Below are positions 2,500 through 64,000 of a DNA stretch of 64,000 nucleotides, piece by piece. The notes under the pieces were generated by a model. The model saw only the letters and a program-made list of their open reading frames with translations, was not told where the DNA came from and made no database searches. Location: IMG/VR virus record IMGVR_UViG_3300028888_000117; one strand, 5' to 3'. Source of the stretch: an uncultured virus (IMG/VR IMGVR_UViG_3300028888_000117). Lineage: Duplodnaviria; Heunggongvirae; Uroviricota; Caudoviricetes. Position numbers and translations under genes: made by a program. Position 1 is the stretch's first letter. Each line of letters begins with the position of its first letter.

Positions 2500-2750
2500 G
2501 AAATAAATCAATAAATGAACTTAATTATGTTGAATTAAGGAATGGTAATGTAATATGTCTTGAAGATATTATTGATATGAATATATTTGGGGGACATAGT
2601 TATACAGATTATGTTTTAGATGTAGCTGGTGAATCTTATAAAATATCTTATGACGAATATAGTAAGATTAAAAATTTATTACAAAAAAATGCAAATAGCT
2701 ATATAATATTATAAGTATAATAGAGTTGAAATACATTTAAAAGAAAGAAA

Positions 2751-3026
2751 ATGATATTAAAAATTAATTATAAGACAAATAACCAAACGATTGTTATATT
2801 AAGTTCAGATACACTTAATGGTATATATTGGAATGCTGTTTATGATGCAAAAGCATTTTATGATCGTTATTATAAATCTGGTGAATCTGACAGTACAAGA
2901 CGTATTCATGAAGATATAATTGATACATATCTTAATACTGTTGCAGGTGTTCCATATACAAAGAAAGATCTTTTAGATAATACCAAATTGGATATTATTA
3001 ATCCAATAGTACATATTGAATTATGA
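2751..3026 (+). CDS. hypothetical protein
   Basis: 91 aa; ATGA overlap with the exonuclease gene. Confidence 0.6.
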   Translation: MILKINYKTNNQTIVILSSDTLNGIYWNAVYDAKAFYDRYYKSGESDSTRRIHEDIIDTYLNTVAGVPYTKKDLLDNTKLDIINPIVHIEL

Positions 3027-3601: not shown

Positions 3602-3731
3602 ATTACAAAAATATAATATTTGTATGTAGTGGTTTGGCTGCAGGTTTATTGGTTAGTTTATCAATAAAAAATCTTTATGATAAATTAACAAAATTGAATT
3701 TTGGAAATATAATTGATTATGAAAATTAATA

Positions 3732-3761
3732 AAATGGGTAGATAATATTATCTACCCATTT
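3732..3761. terminator. bidirectional intrinsic terminator
   Basis: AAATGGGTAGAT/ATCTACCCATTT hairpin between convergent genes. Confidence 0.75.
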
Positions 3762-3763
3762 GT

Positions 3764-51143: not shown

Positions 51144-54100
51144 TTATTCTAATGTGTAAAATAAGCTCCATTGATACAATTGTTCTGGTCTTAATGATTG
51201 ATATATATTATAGAAGTGACCTCTAATTTCAATTGGATTCTGATTAATCTTTTGAACCTGTTCACTGCCAAATATATCAACAGAAACAACTCCTAATGGC
51301 AATATTAAGTAATATGTTCTCTTGTCTTCATTATTTATACCAAGTGGTATATTAAAGCCACTATAACACCAAACAACATATCCATGATCACTGTTTTCAA
51401 TAGTTTGACCAATATATCTCCAACCAACATTATCGTCTTCTTCTAATATAAATGGATTATTAGGATCTTCTTCATTAGCAGCAGTTATCATACTATTATC
51501 AATTAATGGATTAGTAAGACCAACCCACCAATAATATCCAAGATCTTCTTCTGGTGGAATTTCTGATTCAACAACAGCACCATATATTTCTGGAGCATCC
51601 CAAATTACTTCTACATCATCCCCATTATCATAATTATACTTATCAAATTTACACATTATTTGCAAAACATCTGTATCTAAAACATCTTCACTTGTTGCGG
51701 TTGTACAACATATCATATCAACAGTATCTGTAGAAGATATAACGCCATCAGTATTATCGAATTCTTTAGTAAGCTTATCATTAACAATCATAAAGAACAT
51801 TGGTGTTTTATATGATAATCCATAATATTTGATTGCAAATAATTTATTCTGTCCAACATTGATCTTAATCTTATTATATTTATCCATGTCAATATTGAAA
51901 GTATTCTTACATATTGTATTCAAACATACTGCGTAAACCGGTTTATTAACACCTGCAACTATATTTGATATCTTAAGAGGAATATTACTAAAATCAGTAT
52001 TTCTAATATCACCTATAATAGCAGTTGTCTTTTTAGTATCACTTAATGTAGATATCTTATCATATGTTATAATAGGATCAATACTTTTTCCAAATATCCA
52101 AGTTTTACCCATCTTATATTTGATATCATCAATAGTCTTTTCAATAACATAAGGTTGATTACCACCAAATTGTTCAGTAGTATTCATAAACAAATTTTTA
52201 AAGTCTATTGATAATTTATCATGTGTAATAAAATTGTCTCTATCAATTTCATTTATAAGTGAGTTTGATCCTAAGTTAATGTTCTTTTCTAATGTGCCAA
52301 GATGCAATGTAGATTTACTTGGGTCATCATATGAAGTACCCAAGAATGCGTAATATGGATTTCCTTGAGCATCTAATGATATAATGTTTAATCTATTAAG
52401 ATTGTTTGTATTTCTTAAGAATATTTCCTTAAAATCAAATGTTGGAACATTCGTATTAAATACATATTCATCATAGTTTTCTTCAGTATCTTTAATGGTC
52501 TTATATACTACATCAATAGGTCTTATTTCTTCATTTGGTACTAATATATTAGCAGCAACATCCCTAAGTTCATCAGAAATAATAATATTGTCATGATTAT
52601 CAATATTAATTTCTATTATTTCATTTTCTTGTAAAGCTTTTTGAAGTATTTCATTAACTTGAGTTGTTTCAGCAGACCTTGTTATTCTATTAATTTGATA
52701 TTTTGGATATAAAATATTTGTAGTCTTAATATTTGAAAAATCATTAATATACTTTTCAGTCTTTTCATTAATGACGGTATCACTAATATTCTTTAAATCA
52801 TCAGTATATTCAATAACTGCATTTAAATCATTAAAATATTTAAATGTATCTTCTGCTTCTTTATTAGGAGCATATTCATATGCAGACTTATTTTTAAATA
52901 TTCCCCAGTTTAATGAAACAGTACCTAATGTTTCTTGTGCTAATTTAGATATGTTTGCTCTAAGTATAATCATATCTTGTGAATTCATATTATACTTAGC
53001 ATTCGATAAAGCATTTGAAATATTTACTGTTGCTCCTAATGGTAAAGCATAATCAGTTCCATCTTCTTTTACTAATATGAATTGATATTGTTTCTTATCA
53101 TATCCATAATACCATAAAGTAATTATATTAGAACCAATATAATAGCTCTTATAAAGTTCATCATCTAAACATTCTAAATCACAAATATTAATAATTATAC
53201 TATTTTCTAATGCTGTTCTATTAAGATTATCAATGATTGGAACATAAGCATAACAGTATATTTTCTTATCATCTAAATGTTCAAATAATTTATTGTCTAC
53301 TAAGAATTTTTTACGTTCAAAACCAGATCTTAATATAACATTTTTATCTTTTACTGCATTAAGTAAAGAATAACTATCTAATTCATTATTTTTATTCTTT
53401 GAATATATAAGAACAATATTTGGATTACCTGCATCTTTACCTACAGCTCTTATCTTAGTATTTTCGCCGTTTATATTCCAATTTTCCTCATCATTAATAT
53501 AAGGCATTGTATATACTTCTTTAATATATACATTATTAATAATATCTTTAAGATAATAATTATATTCTACTTCAAACTTATATGATTTTAAGATATCTAT
53601 ATCTTTATAATCATAAATTAAATATCTATTATTAGAAAGATATGCCTCTCTGTCATACTTTTCTTCTAAGTTAGTTAATAAAACATATATGTCTGTTGAA
53701 TAATAAATGTTTAATTCATCATTACTGTTACAGATATAACTAATTACATAATTAATAGGAATATATAATCTACCGTTAGAATTATCACTATTTAATTCTT
53801 CATATAATTTACATAATATTCTTTCAAAAAATCTTACACGATTTTCTATGTAAAATTTTTCATTATAATATGCAAACATATTACGATACATTTCACTGAT
53901 ATCATCATTAAAGTTATATATTTCTTCTTCAATATTAACAAAATGATATTCATTCTTATAAAGACTTATTACATCTTCATAATTTTCTGAAACACAGAAA
54001 AATTCATTTTTATTAGAATCATATTCTAACTTTAATGTTGATTTATTAAAATAGTTTGTATTTTCAATGTTATTTATTATAATACTTATTGGTGAGTTAG

Positions 54101-54935
54101 AATCAAAATTATTAGTTTTATCAGGATTATAAGATGTGGTTCCTTCTAATACATCAATATCAATAAATTCTGGACGTAAGAATGCAAATCCCATGTCAGC
54201 AGAATTTTCATAATTTGAATACTGAAATAAATCTCTAAATGAATTCTTATATAAATCACCAAGAATATTTGCATTAAATATTTGAATATCCAAGTTAAAC
54301 TTATTTATATAAGTATTATTGTCTTCATCCTTATCCCTATAAAGTCTAAGTAAAATATAATAAGATGAATTATTATCACTATAAACATGATGAACTTTTG
54401 CAATATAAATTACTTTATTTGATGAAGTATCATATTTATAATATAAAAGAATTGCATTGTCTAAATCAGTATCATCATATCCAATAATCTTACCTACAGC
54501 AATTATAGTCAATATATTATTTTCATTTGATATGATTGTTCCTTTACAATATTTTTCAATTCCACTTATAGGAATTGTAAAACTAAATTCATTATCAAAA
54601 TATAATAAGTTATTTACTGATTTAGTAGTTAATGAATCGATAATCTTATCAGTATTGGTCTTTATATTATTTAGACCAAATATTGCTACAGGATCATCAT
54701 TTTCATCTTTCTTATAATCAATATATCCTATATAATCATTTAATGAATATTCATCTTCACTGCTATTTATTAAATCTAAAAAACTGAATGATCTATATGC
54801 AAGTCCATCTCCTTTTATACCCATTCTTTGACCTAGATTTGCTAATGCCTGAAGAATATATTCTTTTTGGGCTTTATTGAATATATCGGTACTTAAGTCT
54901 GTTTCTGACTGTAATAAATTTATATTTCTTTTCAT
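51144..54935 (-). CDS. large hypothetical protein, probable virion structural component
   Basis: 1263-aa open frame; Asn/Asp/Tyr-rich. Function inferred from size and composition only. Confidence 0.7.
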   Translation of the reverse strand: MKRNINLLQSETDLSTDIFNKAQKEYILQALANLGQRMGIKGDGLAYRSFSFLDLINSSEDEYSLNDYIGYIDYKKDENDDPVAIFGLNNIKTNTDKIIDSLTTKSVNNLLYFDNEFSFTIPISGIEKYCKGTIISNENNILTIIAVGKIIGYDDTDLDNAILLYYKYDTSSNKVIYIAKVHHVYSDNNSSYYILLRLYRDKDEDNNTYINKFNLDIQIFNANILGDLYKNSFRDLFQYSNYENSADMGFAFLRPEFIDIDVLEGTTSYNPDKTNNFDSNSPISIIINNIENTNYFNKSTLKLEYDSNKNEFFCVSENYEDVISLYKNEYHFVNIEEEIYNFNDDISEMYRNMFAYYNEKFYIENRVRFFERILCKLYEELNSDNSNGRLYIPINYVISYICNSNDELNIYYSTDIYVLLTNLEEKYDREAYLSNNRYLIYDYKDIDILKSYKFEVEYNYYLKDIINNVYIKEVYTMPYINDEENWNINGENTKIRAVGKDAGNPNIVLIYSKNKNNELDSYSLLNAVKDKNVILRSGFERKKFLVDNKLFEHLDDKKIYCYAYVPIIDNLNRTALENSIIINICDLECLDDELYKSYYIGSNIITLWYYGYDKKQYQFILVKEDGTDYALPLGATVNISNALSNAKYNMNSQDMIILRANISKLAQETLGTVSLNWGIFKNKSAYEYAPNKEAEDTFKYFNDLNAVIEYTDDLKNISDTVINEKTEKYINDFSNIKTTNILYPKYQINRITRSAETTQVNEILQKALQENEIIEINIDNHDNIIISDELRDVAANILVPNEEIRPIDVVYKTIKDTEENYDEYVFNTNVPTFDFKEIFLRNTNNLNRLNIISLDAQGNPYYAFLGTSYDDPSKSTLHLGTLEKNINLGSNSLINEIDRDNFITHDKLSIDFKNLFMNTTEQFGGNQPYVIEKTIDDIKYKMGKTWIFGKSIDPIITYDKISTLSDTKKTTAIIGDIRNTDFSNIPLKISNIVAGVNKPVYAVCLNTICKNTFNIDMDKYNKIKINVGQNKLFAIKYYGLSYKTPMFFMIVNDKLTKEFDNTDGVISSTDTVDMICCTTATSEDVLDTDVLQIMCKFDKYNYDNGDDVEVIWDAPEIYGAVVESEIPPEEDLGYYWWVGLTNPLIDNSMITAANEEDPNNPFILEEDDNVGWRYIGQTIENSDHGYVVWCYSGFNIPLGINNEDKRTYYLILPLGVVSVDIFGSEQVQKINQNPIEIRGHFYNIYQSLRPEQLYQWSLFYTLE

Positions 54936-54936
54936 T

Positions 54937-57900
54937 TTACTTTAATGTGAATTTATAGGATATCTTATATAATTTTTTAGTTTTTTCAGAATTCAATTTA
55001 TGTATATCTGATTGATAGCTAACAACATATTTATTAAATAAAAATAAAATAATATTAATATTTAACTGTTTTTTAGTTATTCTATTTACATATTTTTTAA
55101 ATAAATATAATGCTTTTTCTTCTGTTTCATATTCATTCACTAATTGGTCATAATCAATAATATCTTTTAATGAAATTATAAACTCTTCTTCTAAATTATA
55201 TAATGAATTATCATTAAAATGTTTATATTCATATTGATACACAAAATCGTGTTCTGTATCATTATTAATAACATCATCATATTTATTTACTACATACAAT
55301 GGGTTATACTTATATATGTTGACTGGAGTATTATACAAAATATTATATTTTTGCGTATCTGTATTATTTTCTTTATATATGTATTTGTTTTCCCAAACAT
55401 TTTCAATAATAGTTTTCTTTTGAATCAATGGTGTTATATAATTAAAATATCTTAATAACTTAATTCTACGTTCTTTCGTATATTTTATGATATCTTCATA
55501 TAAAGTATCTGTTTCAGATTTTTTAAGCATAACATATTTAGATTCATCATCAGGATTAATCTTACGAGTAACATAATTGATATTAATATCCATTTCATTA
55601 GGGAATACAATAACATTTTTAATATCTGTTACAAAGCTCTTAAATATATTAACTTTTAAGAATGGATTAATAATTCTAAATATTGATTTAATATAATCTG
55701 AACCATATAATGATTGAATATTTAATGGAGAACTATTACTTTCACCAGTCATTATATGCTTATTATTTATATACTTAAATGCTGTAGATACATCATATGA
55801 ATTATTGATGTTAAATGTATTATTAGTATTATCTAATAAAACATCTATAAAATAGAAACCGTATTTAGTACCATTTTCATCAGTTAATATATTAATGATA
55901 TTATCTTTACCTTTATGTACTTCATATTTATCACTTTCAAAATTATTATATGATAAGTGATTAATATTGTATATACTATATAATGTCAATCCCAATGAAG
56001 GTATATATGTTTCATGAAAATATTCATCATGTTCTTTAATCTTATTAATAACTTCAAATTTGTTTAAATCATTAATTTCTTCATAAGGTTCTTCACCAAG
56101 TTCAATTAATGCATTATTTAATGATTCTTGCGTTGATAATTCAAATACATATGAATCAACATTAATTTCTTTAAAATAGTTTTCATTATTTACATATGTA
56201 TCTATATAGATTTTATTATTATGAATCATACTATATATGACATCAACATCAACATCATTAATATATACATTATTGAATAATGGCATTAAGAAATCGTCTA
56301 ATTCATTAATACGTGTAGTTCTTGGTTTTTGAGTATCAACAAAATAATTTGAACCATCAGAAACTTCATTACCATTTGCAATAAATATGTTTGACTTACC
56401 AGTAATAGAATCTTTTCCAGTTTTTGATTTATAATAAGTTTCACCAAGAATTAATGATTCTCCAGAACGTACTGCTTCAAAATCTTTTTCATAGTATATT
56501 TTCCAAGTATCAGCATTTTCTTTATATTGACTTCTATAATATAAGTATAAATAACATCTATCATCATTAAGCATCATATTATATAAGTCATTATTAAGTT
56601 GTATGAATTCTTTATAGAATACTAAATCAAGTTCAATCTTAAAATCATCATCCAAGAATATTTCAAATTTATCATTTACATTACGTTTCTTACTTATCAT
56701 ATTAATAAGTAAATTATTTGCAGTATCATATCCCCAATGATGCCTTATATGTAATAAATTTTCAACATAAGTTAATTCTCTTGTTTTATTATCAACAACA
56801 TTTTTAAAATATTCATATAATTGAATGTATCTATCTTTAATAGTTATTTTTTCATTTTTATCAATATACCATACTCTTTCCTTTACATATAAATTATCTA
56901 AAAGACTGAAATTAATATTATTAGTATCTATACCATCTTCACTAAATGCATTTTCTGCTTTTATTAATTGTTCGCAATATTTTGAAATGTGTGTTCTATC
57001 TATAAGACGTGCAAAGAATGATTTTCTAATATATCCATCATTTTTATCAGCTCTTAAATAAGGTATTTTATATTCTTTATCTTTATTATATAATTCAATG
57101 TATTTATTTAAATTATATGTATCTACATAAACATGATGGTCATCATTAACTTTATTCTTTACAAAGAAATTAAACATTCGTAATCCATCTTCATATTCAT
57201 AAGGACAGAAATTATATGTATCTAATTTTTCAATATCACCATATATACTTGGCAATAATGGCGCAGTATCCATATAAATATTTTTCTCATTATGATATAA
57301 AGAAACATCTAAACGTGTAACCTCGCCATTTATAATTGCATCATAATATAAAGAATTTAATGCATTATGTTTGAAAGTATTATATCTTTCTATAATAGCT
57401 TCTTCATTCAAATCATCATATTTTTCTAATGTCTTATTATTTGCATTAGTCAATATTTCATTTAATGTATCAGCTGTAACGAATTGACCTAATTTTAATT
57501 CTGGATGCCAAGAAGTTCTCCAAACAGATTTCTTAATTAATATTGAATTTAAGAAATATAAAAGATCTGCTTCATTAATAAAGTCATATTCTATATATAT
57601 TCTAAAATTATCATAATAATTAACATTATCTTTAATCTTAGAATATATTTCAGTTAAAGGTATCTTTTCATTATTATATGAAGATGCAATATACCAAGCA
57701 TTATCATTATACCAAGAATTTGCTATGAATTCATTCGTTTCTGTTATTGATCTATAATGTCTAACATTATCATTCGTATAATAAATGTTAAATAAATTAA
57801 TTGGTTTATATATATCTATCTTTTCATATCCATGTATTCTAAACTTATTAATTTCATTTTCAAGATCTAATACATTATACTTATTTTGTCCAATTTGATT

Positions 57901-59868
57901 AATTATTATTCTTTTAATTTCTTTAAGATTATAATACTTATTTTCATTATAATAATTATTTATAAGTACATATGAACCATATTTGTCTCTTTTCATTTTT
58001 TCATTATAAAGTAAATATGATACATATGATGAACTAGATTTATATAAATTAGACTTATATGATATTTCTTTATGCGTAATATCTCCTGGTGTAAAACTTG
58101 TATAAAGACTATCATTTTGAATACGTGGCAAATATGCATTAATATCTTTCACACCATAAAATGTATTACCATTATAATTAAATTCTAATCTATATCTTTG
58201 AGGCCACTTAGATAATTCTGAATCAATCTGGAGAACACCATTAATATCAAAAGTATAAGTTATGTCTTTACATATGTTAGAATCAAAAGTAAATTGATCA
58301 ATTACGATACTATTTTTTTGCTTTTCATTTGTCAATACATATTTTGCTCCTAATATATCATTAATAGCTGTGTCATTATCTATATAACTCATATTGATAT
58401 TAAGGAATACACCAAATCTATCAATATTTTCTCCAATGATATCTTTTGAAGTCTTATATAATACTCCTCTAAAATATGAATATTCATTATCTACGGTTGA
58501 CCATAATGTAGAATCTTTAAACATATCACTGTCATCATAGTATATATTATACCATGTTGAATAGAAGTTTGACATTAATTTTACATACTTATCAATATTA
58601 GACTTATTTGAATCATATTCATTTATTTTAGATTCTCCAATAGGAAGATACATATTTTCATTCTTAACGACTGCTTTAGGAAATATGTCTTTAAACATTG
58701 TTGGAAATTCTCCATACTTCTTATTTGGTGTTTCTAATTCAGAAAATGCATAACTCATATTAGTTATATAAGGAGTATCATCTGATGAATTCGCTAACTT
58801 AAATCTACAATATGTTGGAGTTATCTTATTAGTAAATCTATACTTCGCATATTTAGATTCATTAAGTGATGGATAACCAACATTCATTATATTGATTTTA
58901 TTATCATTAGAATCATATCCGAAGTCTTGTTTGTATTCACCAGTTTCTTCATCATATTTTAAATACTTTTCATATAAGTCTGTATAGTCTATTGAAAAGT
59001 CATAGAAATCTTGACGGATATTTTCTTTATCATAATAATATCCTGTTATGTTTAATTTCCAAAACGAGAAGAATTTCTTTTCATGATAATTAAATATGTC
59101 ATTAATATTTATTAAGAAACTTAAAGGTATGATCTGACGCATGATTAAACCATTTCGTTCAAAACCATTGCATATCATATAATCAAAATTATTTATAGTA
59201 TTCTGATTATTATATAAGTTTCCAAATACATTATCAACATATTTTACTAAACCACCCTTCTTTACATCAATTCCAAAATATGCAGCTTGTTTAGATTCTG
59301 GTAAGCAGAATATAACTCTATTGTCTATATGTTTAACATATTTCTTTAAATATGATCTTAAATAATTTGATGTATTTTCTTTATCAATATATATTTTAAC
59401 ATGCTTAACAAGATTATCGTTCAATCTAATATTAAGCATAAAATATTCTGGTAAATCGTCAACATCATCAATATAGAATGGAGCATAAAAACTAAATTGA
59501 TATTCTTGTTGCTTATAATACAATCTTTTGCATCCAAATTCATAATCTTTATTACGTCCATTATTTAATGATTTACTTTCATATTCATCTATCTCTGCGA
59601 AATTATTCTTATTGTATGAATAATTTGCTTTATAAAACATATTAGAATATACATTATAGAATTTTCTTACTACATATTCATGTTGATCTTTTACAAGGTT
59701 CAATTCAATGTTCTTTGTAAAAAGACTATTTTGCAAAGGCATGAGGCATCCTTCTCTTACATATGTTTCATATTCATTAGAAGTTATTTGATTGAAATCG
59801 TTTAATTTACATCCTATTGTAAAATTGCCACTTAATGATGGAATAGTTCTTAATAAAGATTTAAACAT
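54937..59868 (-). CDS. very large hypothetical protein, probable virion structural component
   Basis: 1643-aa open frame, coupled to the next gene. Function inferred only. Confidence 0.7.
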   Translation of the reverse strand: MFKSLLRTIPSLSGNFTIGCKLNDFNQITSNEYETYVREGCLMPLQNSLFTKNIELNLVKDQHEYVVRKFYNVYSNMFYKANYSYNKNNFAEIDEYESKSLNNGRNKDYEFGCKRLYYKQQEYQFSFYAPFYIDDVDDLPEYFMLNIRLNDNLVKHVKIYIDKENTSNYLRSYLKKYVKHIDNRVIFCLPESKQAAYFGIDVKKGGLVKYVDNVFGNLYNNQNTINNFDYMICNGFERNGLIMRQIIPLSFLININDIFNYHEKKFFSFWKLNITGYYYDKENIRQDFYDFSIDYTDLYEKYLKYDEETGEYKQDFGYDSNDNKINIMNVGYPSLNESKYAKYRFTNKITPTYCRFKLANSSDDTPYITNMSYAFSELETPNKKYGEFPTMFKDIFPKAVVKNENMYLPIGESKINEYDSNKSNIDKYVKLMSNFYSTWYNIYYDDSDMFKDSTLWSTVDNEYSYFRGVLYKTSKDIIGENIDRFGVFLNINMSYIDNDTAINDILGAKYVLTNEKQKNSIVIDQFTFDSNICKDITYTFDINGVLQIDSELSKWPQRYRLEFNYNGNTFYGVKDINAYLPRIQNDSLYTSFTPGDITHKEISYKSNLYKSSSSYVSYLLYNEKMKRDKYGSYVLINNYYNENKYYNLKEIKRIIINQIGQNKYNVLDLENEINKFRIHGYEKIDIYKPINLFNIYYTNDNVRHYRSITETNEFIANSWYNDNAWYIASSYNNEKIPLTEIYSKIKDNVNYYDNFRIYIEYDFINEADLLYFLNSILIKKSVWRTSWHPELKLGQFVTADTLNEILTNANNKTLEKYDDLNEEAIIERYNTFKHNALNSLYYDAIINGEVTRLDVSLYHNEKNIYMDTAPLLPSIYGDIEKLDTYNFCPYEYEDGLRMFNFFVKNKVNDDHHVYVDTYNLNKYIELYNKDKEYKIPYLRADKNDGYIRKSFFARLIDRTHISKYCEQLIKAENAFSEDGIDTNNINFSLLDNLYVKERVWYIDKNEKITIKDRYIQLYEYFKNVVDNKTRELTYVENLLHIRHHWGYDTANNLLINMISKKRNVNDKFEIFLDDDFKIELDLVFYKEFIQLNNDLYNMMLNDDRCYLYLYYRSQYKENADTWKIYYEKDFEAVRSGESLILGETYYKSKTGKDSITGKSNIFIANGNEVSDGSNYFVDTQKPRTTRINELDDFLMPLFNNVYINDVDVDVIYSMIHNNKIYIDTYVNNENYFKEINVDSYVFELSTQESLNNALIELGEEPYEEINDLNKFEVINKIKEHDEYFHETYIPSLGLTLYSIYNINHLSYNNFESDKYEVHKGKDNIINILTDENGTKYGFYFIDVLLDNTNNTFNINNSYDVSTAFKYINNKHIMTGESNSSPLNIQSLYGSDYIKSIFRIINPFLKVNIFKSFVTDIKNVIVFPNEMDININYVTRKINPDDESKYVMLKKSETDTLYEDIIKYTKERRIKLLRYFNYITPLIQKKTIIENVWENKYIYKENNTDTQKYNILYNTPVNIYKYNPLYVVNKYDDVINNDTEHDFVYQYEYKHFNDNSLYNLEEEFIISLKDIIDYDQLVNEYETEEKALYLFKKYVNRITKKQLNINIILFLFNKYVVSYQSDIHKLNSEKTKKLYKISYKFTLK

Positions 59869-60354: not shown

Positions 60355-60426
60355 GGCCCGTTCGTCTATCGGTAAGGACTACAGGTTTTCAACCTGCCAA
60401 GAGGGGTCCGACTCCCCTACGGGCTA
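60355..60426 (+). tRNA. tRNA-Glu(TTC)
   Basis: GGCCCGT/ACGGGCT acceptor; CAGG-TT TTC AA-CCTG; T-arm AGGGG/CCCCT. Confidence 0.92.
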
Positions 60427-60462
60427 CTGAAACATAATTTGATTAAGTTCAATAATGTTAAA

Positions 60463-60474
60463 CGTTCTTTGACA
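60463..60474 (+). promoter_or_regulatory. boxA-like antitermination signal
   Basis: CGTTCTTTGACA resembles rrn boxA (TGCTCTTTAACA); sits near the 5' end of the RNA array. Confidence 0.45.
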
Positions 60475-60576
60475 TGTTGGTACAATTAAGATATTTATAA
60501 AGTTAAACGTTGCTGTGAAAGCAATGACTAATCAGTTTCCATTAAAGATTACTAATACTTTTGAGAGTGGATGTTC

Positions 60577-60669
60577 GGAGGTTTACCCAAGTTGGTGAAG
60601 GGGGCACACTGCTAACGTGCTAGGTCGGTGTAACCCATCGGCGCGGGGGTTCAAGTCCCTCAGCCTCCG
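60577..60669 (+). tRNA. tRNA-Ser(GCT)
   Basis: GGAGGTT/AGCCTCC acceptor, CT GCT AA loop, long variable arm, G73. Confidence 0.92.
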
Positions 60670-60672
60670 CTA

Positions 60673-60773
60673 AATATTCAAATATATCCGTAAGGAGTCA
60701 GAAGTTTAAATCTTTCCCTGGGTTTGAACTGCCTGGGTGGCAGAATGTTGAATGATTGCAATATTTGAATATT
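60673..60773 (+). ncRNA. unknown structured RNA cassette
   Basis: 13-bp closing stem AATATTCAAATAT/ATATTTGAATATT with internal hairpins. Confidence 0.5.
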
Positions 60774-60774
60774 A

Positions 60775-60897
60775 AAATAGATATATGTCTGTATCACTGG
60801 TGTGATTAATAATTTGAAGCGTGGTTCGAAACCGCAACTAGGATAGTTCAATTCTTGACTGGGCATGGGTGCAATATAATTATTCTTATATCTATTT
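60775..60897 (+). ncRNA. unknown structured RNA with T-loop-like hairpin
   Basis: 11-bp closing stem AAATAGATATA/TATATCTATTT; internal GGTTCGAAACC. Confidence 0.5.
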
Positions 60898-60902
60898 AAA
60901 TT

Positions 60903-60988
60903 GGAGAATGAACTGCGGCGGCCCGCAGGACTGTCTTGAAAACAGCTCGTTCGGTGAAACGGATTGGGATCGACACCTACTTTCTCCG
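60903..60988 (+). tRNA. tRNA-Ser(TGA) with 8/4 fold and Sec-like D arm
   Basis: 8-position acceptor, 4-bp T stem, 6-bp D stem with 4-nt loop, CT TGA AA loop, long variable arm, G73. Confidence 0.8.
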
Positions 60989-60993
60989 CAAAC

Positions 60994-61169
60994 AAATCTA
61001 CTAGTGTAGGATAGAGTTACTTCATAAGAAAGCTGATAACTTCTCAAAATTTTTCCAGTAAATGGAATACGGGTTCGAGTCCCGTCCATGGCATCGTGCC
61101 GCGGTGGTGAAATTGGTATACACGAAATTTTTATCTAATAATTACTTTATTCATTAATTCTGTAGATTT
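60994..61169 (+). ncRNA. AGAGTTACTTC scaffold RNA copy A with circularly permuted tRNA-Leu-like domain (Yrl/Y RNA-like)
   Basis: Outer stem AAATCTAC/GTAGATTT; inner GGATAGAGT/ACTTTATTC; cargo order V-arm, T-arm, looped acceptor, D-arm. Confidence 0.75.
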
Positions 61170-61176
61170 TATATTT

Positions 61177-61263
61177 GGTCAGGTGCCCGAGTCTGGTTGA
61201 TGAGAGTAGTCTGCAAAACTATTGGAAGAAATTCCCGCGTGGGTTCAAATCCCACCCTGGCCT
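61177..61263 (+). tRNA. tRNA-Cys(GCA) with long variable arm
   Basis: GGTCAGG/CCTGGCC, GTAGT-CT GCA AA-ACTAT, extra arm GGAA-GAAA-TTCC, U73. Confidence 0.85.
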
Positions 61264-61264
61264 C

Positions 61265-61405
61265 AAAATTATCTGGTGTATATAAGAGTTACTTCACGAT
61301 TTTTAATTAAGTGGTTTTAATGCAATTTTTCCAGAATTGAATCCTTGGTTCGAATCCAAGAGAATCGATATTTATTTATACTTTTATAGCTGTTCCGATA
61401 ATTTT
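61265..61405 (+). ncRNA. AGAGTTACTTC scaffold RNA copy B enclosing a full cloverleaf
   Basis: Outer AAAATTATC/GATAATTTT; inner TATAAGAGT/ACTTTTATA. Confidence 0.75.
61297..61368 (+). tRNA. tRNA-like cloverleaf with TCC (Gly) anticodon and non-Gly acceptor, embedded in copy B
   Basis: CGATTTT/AGAATCG, ATTA/TAAT, CAATT-TT TCC AG-AATTG, CTTGG-TTCGAAT-CCAAG, A73. Confidence 0.65.
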
Positions 61406-61410
61406 ATTTT

Positions 61411-61485
61411 GGGTCTGTGGTGTAGGTGGTTGTCGCTCGTCGGACTGAAAATCCGAAGGCACTTGTTCAACTCAAGTCGGACCCA
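61411..61485 (+). tRNA. tRNA-Phe(GAA)
   Basis: GGGTCTG/CGGACCC; TCGGA-CT GAA AA-TCCGA. Confidence 0.88.
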
Positions 61486-61773
61486 CAATATAGATTACAG
61501 CCAAAAATGCTATGGAAAATATGTTGTAATTTATATTATAAAGACTTAGAGTAAATTTAGTAAAAGTCCCAGACGTGTATCTAAGTCTAAAACTATTTAA
61601 GCTCAACATTGGTTGAGTAAGCTCTGAAAACAATTATTTTAATTTAACACGTGTCCTATAGTTGTTTTCATTATCTTAGAGCTATCTTGTACTTAAGGCG
61701 CCAAGAAGTACCTCGCCTACGCGGAATGTAGAGGAAATATTAAGTATGAGGATTTGGAAAGATTTATATTAAT

Positions 61774-61853
61774 CAGGGTGTAGCCGGTAATAGGTGACCG
61801 ACTCGCTTTGGAAGCGAGATTAAGTTATGCAGGTTCGAGTCCTGTCTCCCTGA
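61774..61853 (+). tRNA. tRNA-Pro(TGG), enlarged variable loop
   Basis: CAGGGTG/CTCCCTG; CTCGC-TT TGG AA-GCGAG; 10-nt variable region. Confidence 0.85.
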
Positions 61854-61855
61854 CC

Positions 61856-61998
61856 TAATTGTAATTTTCAAGACCTGCGGACAAACGTTAAAGCAGCTGC
61901 AAGTCCAGCTCCAATATGGTATAGGACTCGGTAAGACCTATGTGGTCGATAGCTACGAACCCCATAGTGAGACGAGGAAAGTGAGAAGATTACAATTA
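61856..61998 (+). ncRNA. unknown structured RNA cassette
   Basis: 14-bp closing stem TAATTGTAATTTTC/GAAGATTACAATTA; GC-richer interior. Confidence 0.55.
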
Positions 61999-62003
61999 TC
62001 TTA

Positions 62004-62075
62004 TATACGGAGATACGTGGTGAGACACCTAGTATGGCCCGCAAGGTTTGATAGTTTAAGATAGAATACCGTATA
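62004..62075 (+). ncRNA. unknown small structured RNA
   Basis: TATACGG/CCGTATA closing stem; internal GGTG-AGA-CACC and GCAA hairpins. Confidence 0.4.
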
Positions 62076-62218
62076 ACAAATAAATGTTAGGAAATTGCCC
62101 ACCGAGATTTAAGGTAGCTCCTTAAACAGCTGAATGGGAAACATGCAAGCTATGTTATGATATTGAATATCGGCCGTAAAATATCAATAACTTGAAGAGA
62201 AATAGTTAACATTTATTT

Positions 62219-62247
62219 TTGAAAAATATAATGATAATATCTATTTA
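62219..62247 (+). promoter_or_regulatory. internal promoter motif of the RNA array
   Basis: TTGAAA-N17-TATTTA, with C before the -10, in an AT-rich gap. Confidence 0.5.
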
Positions 62248-62313
62248 TTATTATATAATCGGAATGTAGTAATTATTAATGATAGAAAAAATTAATAAGT
62301 TTCTTGAATATTT

Positions 62314-62397
62314 AGGGGTGTAACCGGTAATTGGTACCCGCCCGCATTTGGGATGCGGAAGCTTCGGCCTATGCGCGTTCGAGTCGCGTCGCCCCTA
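62314..62397 (+). tRNA. tRNA-Pro(TGG), long variable arm
   Basis: AGGGGTG/CGCCCCT; CCGCA-TT TGG GA-TGCGG; variable region AAGCTTCGGCCTAT. Confidence 0.85.
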
Positions 62398-62419
62398 CGA
62401 TCTCAATCTTGGCAAATTT

Positions 62420-62488
62420 AATTGATTAGTGTAGTAGAGAGTTACTTCTAGGAATGCTTAAATACTTTCTACGATTATTCTATCAATT
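62420..62488 (+). ncRNA. AGAGTTACTTC scaffold RNA copy C (minimal)
   Basis: Outer AATTGAT/ATCAATT; inner GTAGAGAGT/ACTTTCTAC. Confidence 0.7.
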
Positions 62489-62491
62489 TAT

Positions 62492-62563
62492 GCTCGGTTC
62501 ATCTAAGGGTTAGGATTCAAGATTTTCATTCTTGCCATACGAGTTCGAATCTCGTACCGAGTA
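62492..62563 (+). tRNA. tRNA-Glu(TTC)
   Basis: GCTCGGT/ACCGAGT; CAAGA-TT TTC AT-TCTTG. Confidence 0.9.
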
Positions 62564-62564
62564 C

Positions 62565-62638
62565 AATTCCTTGTTGAAGAATAGAGTTACTTCAAGAATG
62601 GGTCTTTAAAAATACTTTATTCGCTTATTACAGGAATT
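62565..62638 (+). ncRNA. AGAGTTACTTC scaffold RNA copy D (minimal)
   Basis: Outer AATTCCT/AGGAATT; inner GAATAGAGT/ACTTTATTC. Confidence 0.7.
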
Positions 62639-62645
62639 TTAATAT

Positions 62646-62717
62646 GGGGCTGTCATCTAACGGTCAGGATCTCAGGTTTTCAACCTGGTCATCGGAGTTC
62701 GAGTCTCCGTGGCCCTA
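62646..62717 (+). tRNA. tRNA-Glu(TTC)
   Basis: GGGGCTG/TGGCCCT; TCAGG-TT TTC AA-CCTGG. Confidence 0.88.
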
Positions 62718-62718
62718 C

Positions 62719-62885
62719 AAAAGTTCATTATCCTAGACGATAGGTAAAGTTGGCATTAGAGATATGGGTTATCCGGAAATTTACCACATATCACTTGCCG
62801 GAGTTGTCATAATCGAGTGTACATAAGTAAAGAACTCCCAAAGGCTTGAGCTTTAATACATTGGGCGAGATGGAACAGAACTTTT
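62719..62885 (+). ncRNA. unknown multibranch RNA cassette
   Basis: AAAAGTTC/GAACTTTT closing stem; GGCA..GATATG/CATATC..TGCC, GGAGTT/AACTCC and AAAGGC/GCTTT arms. Confidence 0.55.
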
Positions 62886-62944
62886 ATTTAAGTCGCTTAC
62901 TAAAACGCTGCGGGTTTTTGAGGTTATCCATAAACCTCAAATTT

Positions 62945-63017
62945 AGGGCTGTCGTCTAACTGGTAAGGATTTATCCCTGATAAGGATAAGATCCCGGATC
63001 ATACCCGGGTGGCCCCA
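62945..63017 (+). tRNA. atypical tRNA with GAT (Ile) anticodon on a Glu-like body
   Basis: AGGGCTG/TGGCCCC (A1:C72 mismatch); TATCC-CT GAT AA-GGATA; T-loop ATCATAC. Confidence 0.7.
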
Positions 63018-63027
63018 CAAATTAAAT

Positions 63028-63101
63028 TGGGATATACAGTATAATGGTTAGTACAGCGGACTCTGACTCCGCAGGTTTCGGTTCGAATCCGGATATCCCA
63101 A
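63028..63101 (+). tRNA. tRNA-Gln(CTG)
   Basis: TGGGATA/TATCCCA; GCGGA-CT CTG AC-TCCGC. Confidence 0.9.
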
Positions 63102-63102
63102 C

Positions 63103-63173
63103 AATATAAGGTGACGAATTGGTGTCAGGTAGTCCGAAAGTACAAGCCCACATTACGGGAAGAGCCTTATATT
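63103..63173 (+). ncRNA. unknown small structured RNA
   Basis: AATATAAGGT/GCCTTATATT closing stem with three short internal hairpins. Confidence 0.45.
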
Positions 63174-63179
63174 TATAAT

Positions 63180-63253
63180 TGGGCTATGCTGTGTAACGGT
63201 TAGCACGTCAGCCTTTGAAGCTGAAGGTCTGGGTTCGAATCCCGGTAGCCCAA
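63180..63253 (+). tRNA. tRNA-Gln(TTG)
   Basis: TGGGCTA/TAGCCCA; TCAGC-CT TTG AA-GCTGA. Confidence 0.9.
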
Positions 63254-63255
63254 CT

Positions 63256-63353
63256 AAGTAAGTAATATTTGAAGAGGATAGGTTCGACTCCTTAGTGTAA
63301 CGGTAGCACACTTCGTATATATTTAATGCATTAATATATAAAATTACTTACTT
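63256..63353 (+). ncRNA. permuted T-arm/D-arm tRNA elbow mimic
   Basis: AAGTAAGTAAT/ATTACTTACTT closing stem; GAAG..AGG-TTCGACT-CCT-TA-GTG-TAACGGTAG-CAC-A-CTTC. Confidence 0.65.
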
Positions 63354-63359
63354 TTTAAT

Positions 63360-63433
63360 TGGGGCATAACTCAGTTGGTTAGAGTGTCAATCTGATACGT
63401 TGAAAGTCCCGTGTTCGAGTCACGGTGCCCCAA
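63360..63433 (+). tRNA. tRNA-Ile(GAT)
   Basis: TGGGGCA/TGCCCCA; TCAAT-CT GAT AC-GTTGA. Confidence 0.88.
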
Positions 63434-63437
63434 CTTT

Positions 63438-63662
63438 GGGAATTAGCAAAATGATTCGTATGAAAGTTATTATTTATAAATATTTGCGTAAGGCCGCAAT
63501 TAGACTGAAAGTTCTCGAGATCAATAATATTTATAATAATGATAAGTAATGACAGAAAGATAAAGTAATAAGAATAGCTAACTTACGAAATTGAATTTGA
63601 AAATGCGAACATACTGCGCTACCCGTGGGTGGGTAGAGGTCCTGTGAAAGTCAGTGGTTCCC
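63438..63662 (+). ncRNA. unknown ~225-nt structured RNA
   Basis: GGGAATTA/TGGTTCCC ends; TTCGTA/TACGAA; TTATAAATATT/AATATTTATAA; CTACCC/GGGTAG. Confidence 0.5.
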
Positions 63663-63668
63663 GACCAT

Positions 63669-63744
63669 GCCGAGGTATACCCTCGCTCTCATAAGGCGTT
63701 GAAAGGTTAGTTGGTTCACGTGAGTTCGACCCTCACCCTCGGTA
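63669..63744 (+). tRNA. rearranged tRNA-like RNA with CAT anticodon lacking a canonical D arm
   Basis: GCCGAGG/CCTCGGT; CGCT-CT CAT AA-GGCG; GTGAG-TTCGACC-CTCAC; only 8 nt between acceptor and anticodon arm. Confidence 0.7.
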
Positions 63745-63772
63745 CATTTATATTAATATAAAGATATTATAT

Positions 63773-63845
63773 GCGGCTGTCGTATAACGGTTTATTATAC
63801 TCGCCTTCCAAGCCAGTGACGTGGGTTCGACTCCCATCAGCCGCT
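63773..63845 (+). tRNA. tRNA-Gly(TCC)
   Basis: GCGGCTG/CAGCCGC, CT TCC AA loop, U73. Confidence 0.9.
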
Positions 63846-64000
63846 CGCATTAGTAATGGAGTTTGGTAACGAAGGGTGCTCCCAAGGTTCTCCACGTTAA
63901 ATCCTTCATAGGAGTTTGAATGATTAATTTCATCAAATATTAAAAACTGTCTTTAATGTGGGCACCGTTTTATATTAAAATTTAAATTATATTAATGATA

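What the first reader, a model, noticed from the sequence alone, without database searches (positions are those of the whole stretch)
61297..61368. Complete TCC cloverleaf with the wrong acceptor identity, caged inside the scaffold
Seen: a fully paired, very AU-rich 72-nt cloverleaf with anticodon TCC, acceptor C1-G72, G2-C71, A3-U70 and discriminator A73. It is enclosed by scaffold copy B and followed by TAT, whereas all 15 stand-alone tRNA genes here are followed by C. A normal tRNA-Gly(TCC) (GCG/CGC, U73) exists at 63773. Known: GlyRS identity needs U73 and G1-C72/C2-G71/G3-C70. Inference: this is unlikely to be glycylated. It may be a decoy or mimic, or a mischarged tRNA if excised.
Basis: partly seen in the sequence, partly recalled or inferred. 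Interest (0 to 1): 0.7.

Follow-up and report, generated by a model that had tools for sequence, protein, structure and literature searches.

The report
Whole tRNA carried by phage Y RNA
The odd glycine-type tRNA sits in the tip of a hairpin that turns out to be the stem of a Y RNA, the small RNA partner of the Ro60 protein, so it is most likely a tRNA look-alike carried by that RNA and not an ordinary tRNA.

Summary
A 72-nt cloverleaf with anticodon TCC lies at 61297-61368 (ARAGORN; Rfam tRNA 52.6 bits). It has C1-G72, G2-C71, A3-U70 and A73, 32% G+C, and T after the discriminator where all 15 stand-alone tRNAs have C.

The "scaffold" is a conserved hairpin with four copies in this rumen jumbo-phage tRNA array; 11 of its 18 pairs show compensatory changes. 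It is the stem module of a Y-RNA class. The same stem lies within 1.3 kb of a Ro60 (TROVE) gene, on the same strand, in 16 of 19 TROVE-positive phage records, in 12 cellular loci and in Xanthomonas phage Tabio. Its usual cargo is a circularly permuted tRNA-like domain (YrlA type), as in copy A here.

Copy B instead carries a complete tRNA in normal order. Orthologues keep all four stems through compensatory changes. The acceptor pairs and the discriminator vary, and the anticodon toggles (TCC 8, TTC 12 of 20 metagenome copies). All 13 neighbouring tRNAs keep their anticodons.

I read it as a non-decoding tRNA mimic on a Y RNA, a new variant of a known kind. Release as a working tRNA is not excluded. 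No Ro60 gene was found in this lineage.

The parts
61265..61406 (+). Scaffold copy B as a whole: a Y-RNA-like unit that fills the spacer between the GCA tRNA (ends 61264) and tRNA-Phe (starts 61411)
   Evidence: CM R1, built from 14 empty scaffolds, matches model positions 1-83 of 83 at 42.4 bits, E 1.4e-6; fold; arms found.
61265..61273 (+). Copy B terminal helix, 5' strand (AAAATTATC). It pairs with 61397-61405. It is followed by bulged T61274 and G75-G76, which pair with C95-C96.
   Evidence: The same helix covaries among copies and relatives (11 of 18 pairs have changes on both sides).
61277..61280 (+). Conserved 5'-strand internal-loop motif (T-G-W-A class; here GTGTA within TGGTGTAT)
   Evidence: Alignment A2. 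The same UGGUGWAG motif is seen in TROVE-adjacent Y RNAs.
61281..61289 (+). Copy B inner helix, 5' strand (TATAAGAGT). It pairs with 61380-61388 (ACTTTTATA).
   Evidence: 9 of 9 pairs; this helix is predicted by RNAalifold on the family.
61290..61296 (+). 5' linker TACTTCA. TACTTC is the family's invariant motif at the start of the apical loop.
61297..61368 (+). The cloverleaf itself: 7-bp open acceptor stem, D arm, anticodon arm with loop TTTCCAG, 4-nt variable region, T arm, A73
   Evidence: Orthologues.
61369..61379 (+). 3' linker TATTTATTTAT. Its sequence varies among orthologues and it lacks the C that follows every other tRNA here.
61380..61405 (+). Copy B 3' arm: inner helix 3' strand, conserved GCTGTTCC loop strand, terminal helix 3' strand
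   Evidence: 87% identical to L045 by the alignment; the gapless alignment shows the arm itself unchanged and the differences only beyond it.
60995..61169 (+). Scaffold copy A. Same stem, with a circularly permuted tRNA-like cargo: extra hairpin 61053-61067, T arm 61069-61085, closed 7-bp acceptor hairpin 61086-61104, D arm 61107-61123. This is the YrlA order.
   Evidence: (Rfam YrlA 17.5 bits, E 0.24, below the gathering score). Orthologues in L153, L189 and L209 show compensatory changes in the acceptor hairpin.
62420..62489 (+). Scaffold copy C: stem only, 21-nt apical loop, ends 2 nt before tRNA-Glu
   Evidence: CM 77.3 bits (this copy was part of the model's seed).
62565..62639 (+). Scaffold copy D: stem only. 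It starts right after tRNA-Glu (62564) and ends 6 nt before the next tRNA-Glu.
   Evidence: CM 85.8 bits (this copy was part of the model's seed).
63773..63845 (+). Canonical tRNA-Gly(TCC) of the same array, for comparison

Best explanation
The window is part of a low-G+C jumbo phage from ruminant gut. Its tRNA array is interleaved with four copies of a hairpin that is the stem (Ro60/Rsr-binding) module of a widespread class of bacterial and phage Y RNAs. The stem has a terminal helix, a bulged U, two more pairs, a conserved internal loop, a 9-bp inner helix, and an apical loop that starts with UACUUC. The tip of this stem normally carries an 'effector' module that mimics tRNA. That module is most often a circularly permuted tRNA without an anticodon loop or free ends (YrlA type; copy A here), and sometimes nothing (copies C and D). 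Copy B carries the most tRNA-like cargo found: a complete cloverleaf in normal order, joined to the stem by two A/U-rich linkers. I propose that the array is transcribed as one precursor, and that RNase P and RNase Z cuts at the flanking tRNAs release each Y RNA, since the hairpins fill the spacers almost exactly. I further propose that copy B then acts as a Y RNA whose cloverleaf is a non-decoding tRNA mimic. It would present a tRNA body to a tRNA-binding factor while the stem binds Ro60/Rsr. That Rsr would have to come from the host or from an unsampled part of the phage genome. Shown here: the cloverleaf, the hairpin and its covariation, the family link to Ro60 genes, and the pattern of change among orthologues. 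Inferred: transcription as one unit, release by tRNA-processing enzymes, Ro60 binding in this lineage, and the lack of a decoding role. My confidence that the scaffold is a Y-RNA stem is about 0.85. The figure given for this explanation covers the whole statement, including the non-decoding role.
For: (1) The stem is a real, conserved RNA structure. RNAalifold on 14 empty copies predicts 18 pairs, 11 of them with compensatory double changes and almost none broken. (2) It is the same family as Ro60-linked Y RNAs. A covariance model built only from tRNA-array copies finds full-length matches in 14 of 14 TROVE-adjacent loci searched (E 1e-10 to 2e-3), and in the window only copies B, C and D. (3) TROVE (PF05731) is present in 19 of 24 phage records that carry the stem, and in 9 of 9 records that are at least 90% complete. 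From the coordinates, the stem lies within 1.3 kb on the same strand in 16 of those 19. (4) 12 of 73 cellular loci of at least 3 kb that match the 5'-arm pattern have a TROVE ORF within 2.5 kb. Cultured Xanthomonas phage Tabio has about five such RNAs, one of them empty, directly upstream of its TROVE protein. (5) Cargo-bearing members hit Rfam YrlA in 12 of 12 loci tested, at 30-45 bits and E 3e-7 to 7e-3. (6) Among 150 distinct stems scored by my script, 54 are empty, 45 carry cargo in permuted order and 12 carry cargo in normal order. Only the TCC/TTC group has a 7/7 acceptor stem; the other nested calls have 5/7. (7) Orthologues of the cloverleaf keep the acceptor stem (CGAUUUU, CGGUUUU, ACUUUUU or GCUUUUU with matching partners) and the T stem (CUUGG, CUCGG or CCUGG with partners) by compensatory change. 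The discriminator is A, U or C. The anticodon is TCC in 8 and TTC in 12 of 20 metagenome copies, on shared backbones. (8) 13 of 13 syntenic canonical tRNAs keep their anticodon between the window and L045 at 60-100% identity; the cloverleaf alone differs. (9) The cloverleaf is redundant with canonical Gly(TCC) and Glu(TTC) genes in the same arrays. It lacks their C after the discriminator and is far more A/U-rich. It has no close paralogue among 783 tRNAs of the fetched loci.
Against: No TROVE gene was found in the window or in its closest relatives G021 (83% complete), G001 and G022, so Ro60 binding in this lineage rests on homology of the stem alone. The literal YrlA motif GNCGAAN0-1G is absent. 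Rfam YrlA does not reach its gathering score on any member, and it does not hit copy B at all. The cloverleaf has everything RNase P and RNase Z need: a 7-bp open acceptor stem, a T arm and single-stranded flanks. M. smegmatis YrlA, which also has a 7-bp acceptor stem, is cut by RNase P and receives CCA in vivo (PMC4201824, passages read), so release or nicking is likely. Positions 34 and 36 are invariant in 20 of 20 copies and only position 35 toggles. That could equally reflect a working tRNA switching between two codon boxes. The search pattern fixed positions 32, 33, 37 and 38 and the anticodon stem, so their constancy carries no information.
Confidence: 0.5

Rival explanations
1. It is a working tRNA. 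The Y-type hairpin is only its precursor context. RNase P and RNase Z excise the cloverleaf, CCA is added, and it decodes GGA/GGG, or GAA/GAG in the TTC allele. Identity is set mainly by the anticodon.
For: It is a complete cloverleaf with all tertiary-pair positions, U33 and a purine at 37. The open 7-bp acceptor stem is kept at 7 bp by compensatory changes. Positions 34 and 36 are invariant in 20 of 20 copies. Both alleles give sense anticodons of neighbouring boxes. RNase P cuts a Y RNA that has a 7-bp acceptor stem (PMC4201824, passages read).
Against: The same acceptor stem and discriminator occur with both TCC and TTC, and acceptor pairs 1-3 and position 73 vary freely. By recalled identity rules (U73 and G1-C72, C2-G71, G3-C70 for GlyRS) this is hard to square with one amino-acid identity. 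The cloverleaf is redundant with canonical Gly(TCC) and three Glu(TTC) genes. It is the only one of 14 syntenic cloverleaves whose anticodon differs between the window and L045. It lacks the C after the discriminator that 15 of 15 siblings have, and it is much weaker thermodynamically. The other nested cargoes in this family are clearly not tRNAs.
Confidence: 0.3
2. In this lineage the hairpins no longer have anything to do with Ro60. They are spacer or punctuation hairpins of the tRNA precursor, serving as processing or stability elements, and the cloverleaf is a passenger.
For: No TROVE gene was found in the window or in G021, G001 or G022. All four copies sit exactly between tRNAs. The array copies have A/U-rich variants of the loop motifs.
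Against: The loop and apical motifs that are not needed for a plain hairpin stay conserved. Copy B's 5' arm is 97% identical to L045, where the neighbouring tRNA-Phe is 71%. G024 and G025 carry array-type copies and a TROVE gene elsewhere in the genome, with no Y RNA beside it. The model built from array copies recognises the TROVE-adjacent RNAs. All lineage records are incomplete.
Confidence: 0.12
3. It is a decaying pseudo-tRNA that happened to be inserted into a hairpin.
For: Low G+C, weak folding energy (z -0.77), and unusual acceptor pairs.
Against: The window and G021 are identical over 150 nt although the adjoining genes are only 67-76% identical in DNA. Three acceptor pairs and one T-stem pair change on both sides with pairing kept. 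The D arm and anticodon arm are invariant in every copy recovered. No frame of decay is visible.
Confidence: 0.03

Closest known systems
YrlA (Y RNA-like A; Rfam RF02553; Salmonella Typhimurium, Mycobacterium smegmatis, mycobacteriophages; Chen et al. 2014, PMC4201824, passages read; Wang et al. 2018 preprint 10.1101/312249, passages read)
   Same: The 5' and 3' ends pair into a long stem with an internal loop. The tip carries a tRNA-like module. The genes lie next to Ro60 (TROVE) genes on the same strand, often in tandem sets. Copy A and 45 relatives have the same order: variable arm, T arm, closed acceptor hairpin, D arm. Rfam YrlA detects them at E 3e-7 to 7e-3.
   Different: No member reaches the Rfam gathering score of 69 bits. 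The literal GNCGAAN0-1G motif is replaced by UGGUGWAG, plus an invariant GUUACUUC at the start of the apical loop. Copy B's cargo is in normal order with an open acceptor stem and a 7-nt anticodon loop, both of which the papers say YrlA lacks. Here the RNAs lie inside a tRNA array with no Ro60 gene in reach.
Deinococcus radiodurans Yrn1 (described in PMC4201824, passages read)
   Same: A Y RNA whose tRNA-like part is in the other orientation. A stem-loop occupies the anticodon-arm position and the Ro60-binding stem sits at the acceptor end. That is the topology of copy B.
   Different: According to the paper, Yrn1 has a 6-nt 'anticodon' loop, no full D arm and no acceptor stem of its own. Copy B has a full cloverleaf. 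I made no sequence comparison with Yrn1.
Phage Ro60 with Y-RNA-like RNAs
   Same: Phage-encoded Y RNAs lie upstream of a phage Ro60 gene. Tabio carries the very same stem class, including an empty copy.
   Different: Those RNAs sit beside the Ro60 gene. None was seen carrying a complete cloverleaf. The Tabio RNAs and its TROVE protein are unannotated in the record.
Ordinary phage tRNA-Gly(TCC)
   Same: Cloverleaf, anticodon, tertiary-pair positions and Rfam score.
   Different: Acceptor pairs and discriminator differ from the recalled identity set. The anticodon is not conserved among orthologues. It has no C after the discriminator, sits nested in a Y-RNA stem, and has 32% G+C.

Membership tests
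tRNA-Gly (decoding, GlyRS-charged) | Cloverleaf with anticodon NCC | tested here: met
   ARAGORN Gly(tcc); Rfam tRNA 52.6 bits.
tRNA-Gly (decoding, GlyRS-charged) | Bacterial GlyRS identity set: U73, G1-C72, C2-G71, G3-C70 (recalled from the literature, not read here) | tested here: not met
   The window has A73, C1-G72, G2-C71 and A3-U70. The canonical gene at 63773 has the full set.
tRNA-Gly (decoding, GlyRS-charged) | Anticodon conserved among orthologues | tested here: not met
   TCC in 8 and TTC in 12 of 20 metagenome copies. In IMG/VR, TCC in G021 and G022 and TTC in G001. 13 of 13 neighbouring tRNAs keep theirs.
tRNA-Gly (decoding, GlyRS-charged) | Same 3' context as the other tRNAs of the array | tested here: not met
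   T follows the discriminator here; C follows it in 15 of 15 others.
tRNA-Gly (decoding, GlyRS-charged) | Processed to a CCA end and aminoacylated | not testable with these tools
   Only assembled contigs of RNA libraries were available.
Y RNA / YrlA class | 5' and 3' ends pair into a long stem with an internal loop, conserved by covariation | tested here: met
   18 pairs, 11 with changes on both sides. Copy B is spanned by the model.
Y RNA / YrlA class | GNCGAAN0-1G motif near the 5' end (PMC4201824) | tested here: not met
   The motif is absent from all four copies. A different conserved 5'-strand motif, UGGUGWAG, sits at the junction of the terminal helix and the internal loop. TROVE-adjacent members have the same motif.
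Y RNA / YrlA class | tRNA-like module in permuted order with a closed acceptor hairpin and no anticodon loop | tested here: not met
   Copy B is in normal order with an open acceptor stem and an anticodon loop. Copy A and 45 of 150 relatives do meet this feature.
Y RNA / YrlA class | Encoded within about 4 kb of a Ro60 (TROVE) gene on the same strand | tested here: not met
   None in the 64-kb window or in G021, G001 or G022. For the stem family at large the feature is met: 16 of 19 TROVE-positive phage records, 12 cellular loci and phage Tabio.
Y RNA / YrlA class | Rfam RF02553 gathering score (69 bits) | tested here: not met
   Copy A scores 17.5 bits and copy B gets no hit. Relatives score 30-45 bits.
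Y RNA / YrlA class | Bound by Ro60/Rsr | not testable with these tools
   No RNA-protein tool was available. This needs a gel-shift or pull-down experiment.

The most novel reading that the evidence does not exclude
The Y-RNA stem presents a complete, anticodon-bearing tRNA body as bait. It would be a phage decoy or sensor for a host nuclease or defence factor that attacks the anticodon loops of the UCC/UUC tRNAs, tethered through Ro60 to a nuclease or a repair activity. The recurrent C/U toggle at position 35 on otherwise frozen backbones would then be the trace of an arms race. The series from empty stem, through partial and permuted cargoes, to whole tRNA would show directly how Y RNAs arise by capturing tRNAs into a Ro60-binding hairpin.
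Probability: 0.15. Interest if true: 0.85.

Novelty: new variant of a known kind. Interest (0 to 1): 0.6.

Why it matters
Y RNAs are known as Ro60 partners whose tRNA-like part lacks an anticodon loop and free ends. What that part binds is still unknown.

This phage lineage places Y-RNA stems between tRNA genes, where tRNA-processing enzymes would release them. One of them carries a complete cloverleaf whose body is frozen while anticodon position 35 flips between C and U.

That gives three things:
- a natural intermediate between tRNA and Y RNA, which bears on the suggestion in Chen et al. 2014 that Y RNAs came from tRNAs;
- a handle on the unknown effector, since something must read the anticodon arm;
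- a stem class (UGGUGWAG ... GUUACUUC ... UGUUCC) that Rfam's YrlA model misses at its threshold, although it is widespread in phages, bacteria and at least one archaeal MAG. It includes a cultured Xanthomonas phage in which binding could be tested.

Tried and rejected
- **Permuted or split tRNA gene, two-piece tmRNA (copy A).** ARAGORN finds no tmRNA. The acceptor hairpin loop is 5 nt with no CCA and there is no tag frame. The design is YrlA's.
- **Dimeric-tRNA artefact for copy A** (the caveat raised in PMC4201824). Neither half has a partner acceptor strand, and the 7-nt strands pair at 6 of 7 positions (read).
- **GOLLD, ROOL or any other Rfam family.** Nothing beyond tRNA at gathering score. 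At E up to 10 only weak YrlA and noise.
- **RNase III-type hairpin, integron attC-like site, MITE with inverted repeats, Bacteroidota promoter.** I considered these from the sequence. The conserved G-U pairs and the covariation argue for RNA on the + strand, and the link to TROVE supersedes them.
- **First pattern scan.** Only about 10 were tRNA-array copies.
- **Genome scan.** I estimate several hundred chance matches for this pattern in 596 Gb. Only the 12 TROVE-adjacent loci were used.
- **blastn of copy B against GenBank phages.** No match.
- **TROVE in the lineage.** None found with Pfam, with a phage TROVE protein, or with my own HMM. The 289.7-kb metagenome contig that carries the window-type copy could not be searched.
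- **RNA-library contigs.** They cover the array, including the cloverleaf, but contigs cannot show ends or prove transcription. Two runs show a joint from 61296 to 61378 that skips the cloverleaf, with sides of only 22-23 nt lying in motifs shared by all copies. I take this as cross-mapping of empty copies and not as evidence of excision.
- **Folding energy alone.** It does not support the cloverleaf or the hairpins (z -0.8 to -2.1). The support comes from covariation.
- **Literature searches.** They found no report of a Y RNA carrying a complete tRNA or of Y RNAs inside phage tRNA arrays. The library lacks most subscription journals, and the 2020 Annual Review on bacterial Ro60 was not held.
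Full report
**What is at the coordinates**

ARAGORN calls a 72-nt tRNA-Gly(tcc) at 61297-61368. Rfam's tRNA model gives 52.6 bits (E 1.9e-8) over its full length, inside the 41.9-64.3 bit range of the other tRNAs in the array.

Read from the sequence:
- The acceptor stem is CGAUUUU/AGAAUCG, seven pairs beginning C1-G72, G2-C71, A3-U70.
- The discriminator is A73 and the anticodon loop is UUUCCAG.
- The usual tertiary positions are all present (U8, G18G19, G15:C48, G53-C61, UUCGAAU).

The isolated 72-mer folds into the cloverleaf as its minimum-energy structure, but weakly: -12.9 kcal/mol against -21.9 for the canonical Gly tRNA at 63773. Its G+C is 0.32 against 0.43-0.62 for the others.

**The setting**

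The window has 26% G+C and encodes phage functions: a T4-type baseplate protein, ThyX, an NAD-dependent ligase, ClpP and SbcCD-like proteins. Relatives in IMG/VR are fragments of genomes estimated at roughly 280-290 kb. Near-identical words occur in sheep, goat and bovine gut runs. From 60355 to the end of the window there is an array of tRNA genes on the + strand.

**The scaffold**

Direct-repeat search finds four copies of a two-part element. Each folds into a long hairpin with these parts:
- a terminal helix of 7-9 bp whose four central pairs differ and covary between copies (AATCTAC/GTAGATT, AATTATC/GATAATT, AATTGAT/ATCAATT, AATTCCT/AGGAATT);
- a bulged T and two further pairs;
- an internal loop with conserved strands;
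- a 9-bp inner helix ending in AGAGT/ACTTT;
- an apical loop that always begins TACTTC.

The 11-mer AGAGTTACTTC occurs four times exactly in the window, all in the array. Allowing one mismatch there are 5 matches against 0.94 expected.

Copies C (62420-62489) and D (62565-62639) have short loops. Copy B holds the cloverleaf. Copy A (60995-61169) holds, in this order, a small hairpin, a T arm, a closed 7-bp acceptor hairpin and a D arm. That is a circularly permuted tRNA.

Each copy fills the spacer between two tRNAs. Three of the four start within 6 nt of the upstream tRNA, and all four end 2-7 nt before the next one.

**The family**

A pattern made from the two arms retrieved tRNA-array copies in other phage contigs. 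One of them, L045, has an array syntenic with the window's. RNAalifold on 14 empty copies from 10 loci predicted the same structure without guidance: 18 pairs, 11 with changes on both sides, almost none broken.

A more specific 5'-arm pattern gave 116 viral loci. My script, which requires both helices, found 150 distinct stems in them, the four window copies included. They break down as follows:
- 54 empty (loop under 60 nt);
- 45 with a T arm early in the loop (permuted order);
- 12 with the T arm last (normal order);
- 23 with cargo but no strict T arm;
- 16 long and doubtful.

Some of the 116 loci may be chance matches.

**What the family is**

The permuted cargo is the architecture of YrlA, the bacterial Y RNA that partners the Ro60 orthologue Rsr. 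YrlA has a stem, variable arm, T arm, closed acceptor hairpin and D arm (PMC4201824 and preprint 10.1101/312249, passages read; Rfam consensus). Four independent tests support the link.

- **Rfam.** YrlA hits 6 of 6 phage loci (32-42 bits) and 6 of 6 cellular loci (30-45 bits). E-values run from 3e-7 to 7e-3, all below the gathering score of 69.
- **Gene neighbourhood.** I chose 24 stem-bearing phage records without regard to their genes. 19 encode a TROVE domain, including 9 of 9 records that are at least 90% complete. Comparing coordinates, the stem lies within 1.3 kb of the TROVE gene on the same strand in 16 of the 19 (15 upstream, 1 downstream).
- **Cellular genomes and a cultured phage.** Most pattern matches in cellular genomes must be chance. 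Even so, 12 of 73 loci of at least 3 kb have a TROVE ORF within 2.5 kb. These include Acidobacteriota, Clostridia, Acetivibrio, Saprospiraceae, a Bacteroidales MAG and a DHVE2 archaeon. In Xanthomonas phage Tabio, about five tandem RNAs of this design, one of them empty, precede a 'hypothetical protein' that matches my TROVE profile at E 1e-155.
- **Covariance model.** A model built only from the 14 tRNA-array empty copies finds full-length matches in 14 of 14 TROVE-adjacent loci searched (E 1e-10 to 2e-3). It finds none in two TROVE loci that lack an adjacent RNA. In the 64-kb window it finds only D, C and B (B: 61265-61406, 42.4 bits, E 1.4e-6). Copy A, with its 126-nt insert, was not found by this model.

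The scaffold is therefore the stem module of a Ro60-linked Y-RNA class. It differs from described YrlA in lacking the literal GNCGAAN0-1G motif. In its place, at the junction of the terminal helix and the internal loop, stands UGGUGWAG. The class also has an invariant GUUACUUC and a UGUUCC-like 3' strand.

**The missing partner**

No TROVE gene was found in the window. None was found in the closest relatives G021 (83% complete), G001 and G022, whether with Pfam or with a phage TROVE protein as query.

Two other large phages, G024 and G025, have array-type stems and a TROVE gene 34 kb and 214 kb away, with no Y RNA beside it. A gene elsewhere in this genome, or use of the host's Rsr, both remain open. 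The control shows that Bacteroides thetaiotaomicron has TROVE.

**The cloverleaf among its orthologues**

IMG/VR holds three distinct orthologues. G021 is identical to the window over 150 nt, although the adjoining genes are only 67-76% identical in DNA. G022 has TCC. G001 (locus L045) has TTC.

A metagenome scan left the three anticodon positions free and gave 50 matches. Of these, 20 have the stem's 5' arm and a T arm; the other 30 were unrelated and were dropped. The 20 comprise 8 distinct cloverleaf sequences.

| Feature | Variants seen |
|---|---|
| Anticodon | TCC in 8 copies (5 distinct sequences), TTC in 12 (3 distinct) |
| Acceptor stem | CGAUUUU/AGAAUCG, CGGUUUU/GAAACUG, ACUUUUU/AGAAAGU, GCUUUUU/AGAAAGU; always seven pairs |
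| T stem | CUUGG/CCAAG, CUCGG/CCGAG, CCUGG/CCAGG |
| Discriminator | A, U or C |

- Positions 34 and 36 never vary.
- Both alleles occur on the ACUUUUU/CUCGG backbone and on the ACUUUUU/CCUGG backbone, so position 35 changed at least twice, or was exchanged by recombination.
- Positions 32, 33, 37 and 38 and the anticodon stem were fixed by my search pattern, so their constancy says nothing.
- Some of the 20 copies are the same contigs as the IMG/VR records.

Between the window and L045, all 13 syntenic canonical tRNAs keep their anticodon although they are only 60-100% identical. The nested cloverleaf is 85% identical and alone differs. Copy B's arms are 97% and 87% identical. The cloverleaf has no close paralogue among 783 tRNAs of the fetched loci.

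Among the nested modules that ARAGORN calls in 60-160-nt loops (11 calls), only the TCC/TTC group has a 7/7 acceptor stem. The 'Cys', 'Ser' and other modules have 5/7 and are visibly mimics, and their anticodon triplets also drift (GCA/ACA; TGA/TTT).

**How I read it**

The cloverleaf is under purifying selection for its shape and for the sequence of its D and anticodon arms, so it is not decaying. It does not behave like a decoding tRNA of fixed identity. It sits in an RNA family whose normal cargo is a non-chargeable tRNA mimic.

The topology, with the Ro60 stem at the acceptor end and an anticodon-type arm present, is the one described for Deinococcus Yrn1 (PMC4201824, passages read). Here it comes with a complete cloverleaf.

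My best explanation (confidence about 0.5) is a Y RNA whose effector module is a whole tRNA body. It would be released from the array transcript by the tRNA-processing cuts at its neighbours and would act as a tethered tRNA mimic.

The main rival (0.3) is that RNase P and RNase Z also excise it and it works as a tRNA. The 7-bp open acceptor stem makes at least RNase P cleavage likely, as shown for M. smegmatis YrlA. The two readings are not fully exclusive, because a nicked RNA could stay held together by the stem.

**Expression**

Contigs from four ruminant-gut RNA libraries cover the array, cloverleaf included. Contigs cannot show ends, strand or transcription, so this settles nothing.

**Comparison with what is known**

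The searches found YrlA papers, a Thermus phage Ro60/Yrl study, and a jumbo-phage survey that notes TROVE 'with a tRNA-like partner' in some jumbo phages (PMC7824862, passage read). None reports a Y RNA carrying a complete tRNA or Y RNAs interleaved in a tRNA array.

Chen et al. state that they discarded candidates overlapping tandem tRNA genes, which would have hidden such cases. Supplementary tables of that paper were not opened.

Earlier notes of this scan report orphan YrlA-like RNAs in phages without Ro60, one of them inside a tRNA array. I did not check those notes.

**Verdict**

The scaffold is identified as a Y-RNA stem, which is a known kind of RNA in a class that Rfam under-detects. 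The nested cloverleaf is a new variant within that kind. Its function as a mimic is inferred, not shown.

Noticed in passing
window 63435-63666: A 232-nt non-tRNA element fills the gap between tRNA-Ile and a weak tRNA-like gene. It is about 94% identical to L045, with conservation starting and stopping sharply at its borders while the flanking tRNA is 67% identical. Its ends pair in the predicted fold. It is among the most deeply covered parts in RNA-library contigs. One contig in run X21 joins 63666 back to 63435, which means either a circular molecule or a tandem copy.
   Followed up: partly
window 62719-62944 (peak 62780-62903): This spacer between tRNA-Glu and tRNA-Ile has the highest contig depth of the array in three of four RNA libraries (348, 353 and 890). 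It has no Rfam match and its nature is unknown.
   Followed up: no
window 61438-62271: This is the stretch best conserved with G001 (88% over 834 nt). It includes two long non-tRNA gaps (61487-61773 and 61856-62313) that are richer in G+C than the genome. They are probably further structured RNAs.
   Followed up: no
window 61177-61264; 61774-61855; 62314-62398: A tRNA with anticodon GCA is 88 nt long with a long variable arm (class II shape), while its L045 counterpart is 73 nt. Two tRNA-Pro(TGG) genes are 82 and 85 nt long, with insertions in the variable region, against 75 nt in L045.
   Followed up: no
window 60355-63846, all tRNA 3' ends: No tRNA encodes CCA, but 15 of 15 have C right after the discriminator, mostly as CA or CAA. 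This suggests a particular 3'-end processing rule in this phage or its host.
   Followed up: partly
window 60902-60988: A tRNA-like gene missed by ARAGORN. It scores best on Rfam's tRNA-Sec model (43.8 bits, below the gathering score of 47). By my reading its anticodon loop gives TGA (Ser), and it has a long variable arm. It is 98% identical to L045.
   Followed up: partly
window 60464-60552: A weak, non-significant match to Rfam DUF2693 RNA (22.8 bits against a gathering score of 81.3). A 2026 preprint abstract reports a related DUF2693-FD RNA as a tRNA mimic.
   Followed up: no
L538 (Xanthomonas phage Tabio LR743528.1) 1990-3979: About five tandem Y RNAs and the TROVE protein they precede (CAA2393627.1, labelled hypothetical) are unannotated in the GenBank record. 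Related Xanthomonas and Xylella phages gave the same blastn hit.
   Followed up: partly
window, whole: Among ORFs of at least 150 codons, 27 end in TAA, 9 in TGA and none in TAG. Reading TAG through lengthens the ORFs only modestly.
   Followed up: no
window 51144-59868 (- strand): Two very large ORFs (1263 and 1643 aa) next to the array have no Pfam match at E up to 0.001.
   Followed up: no
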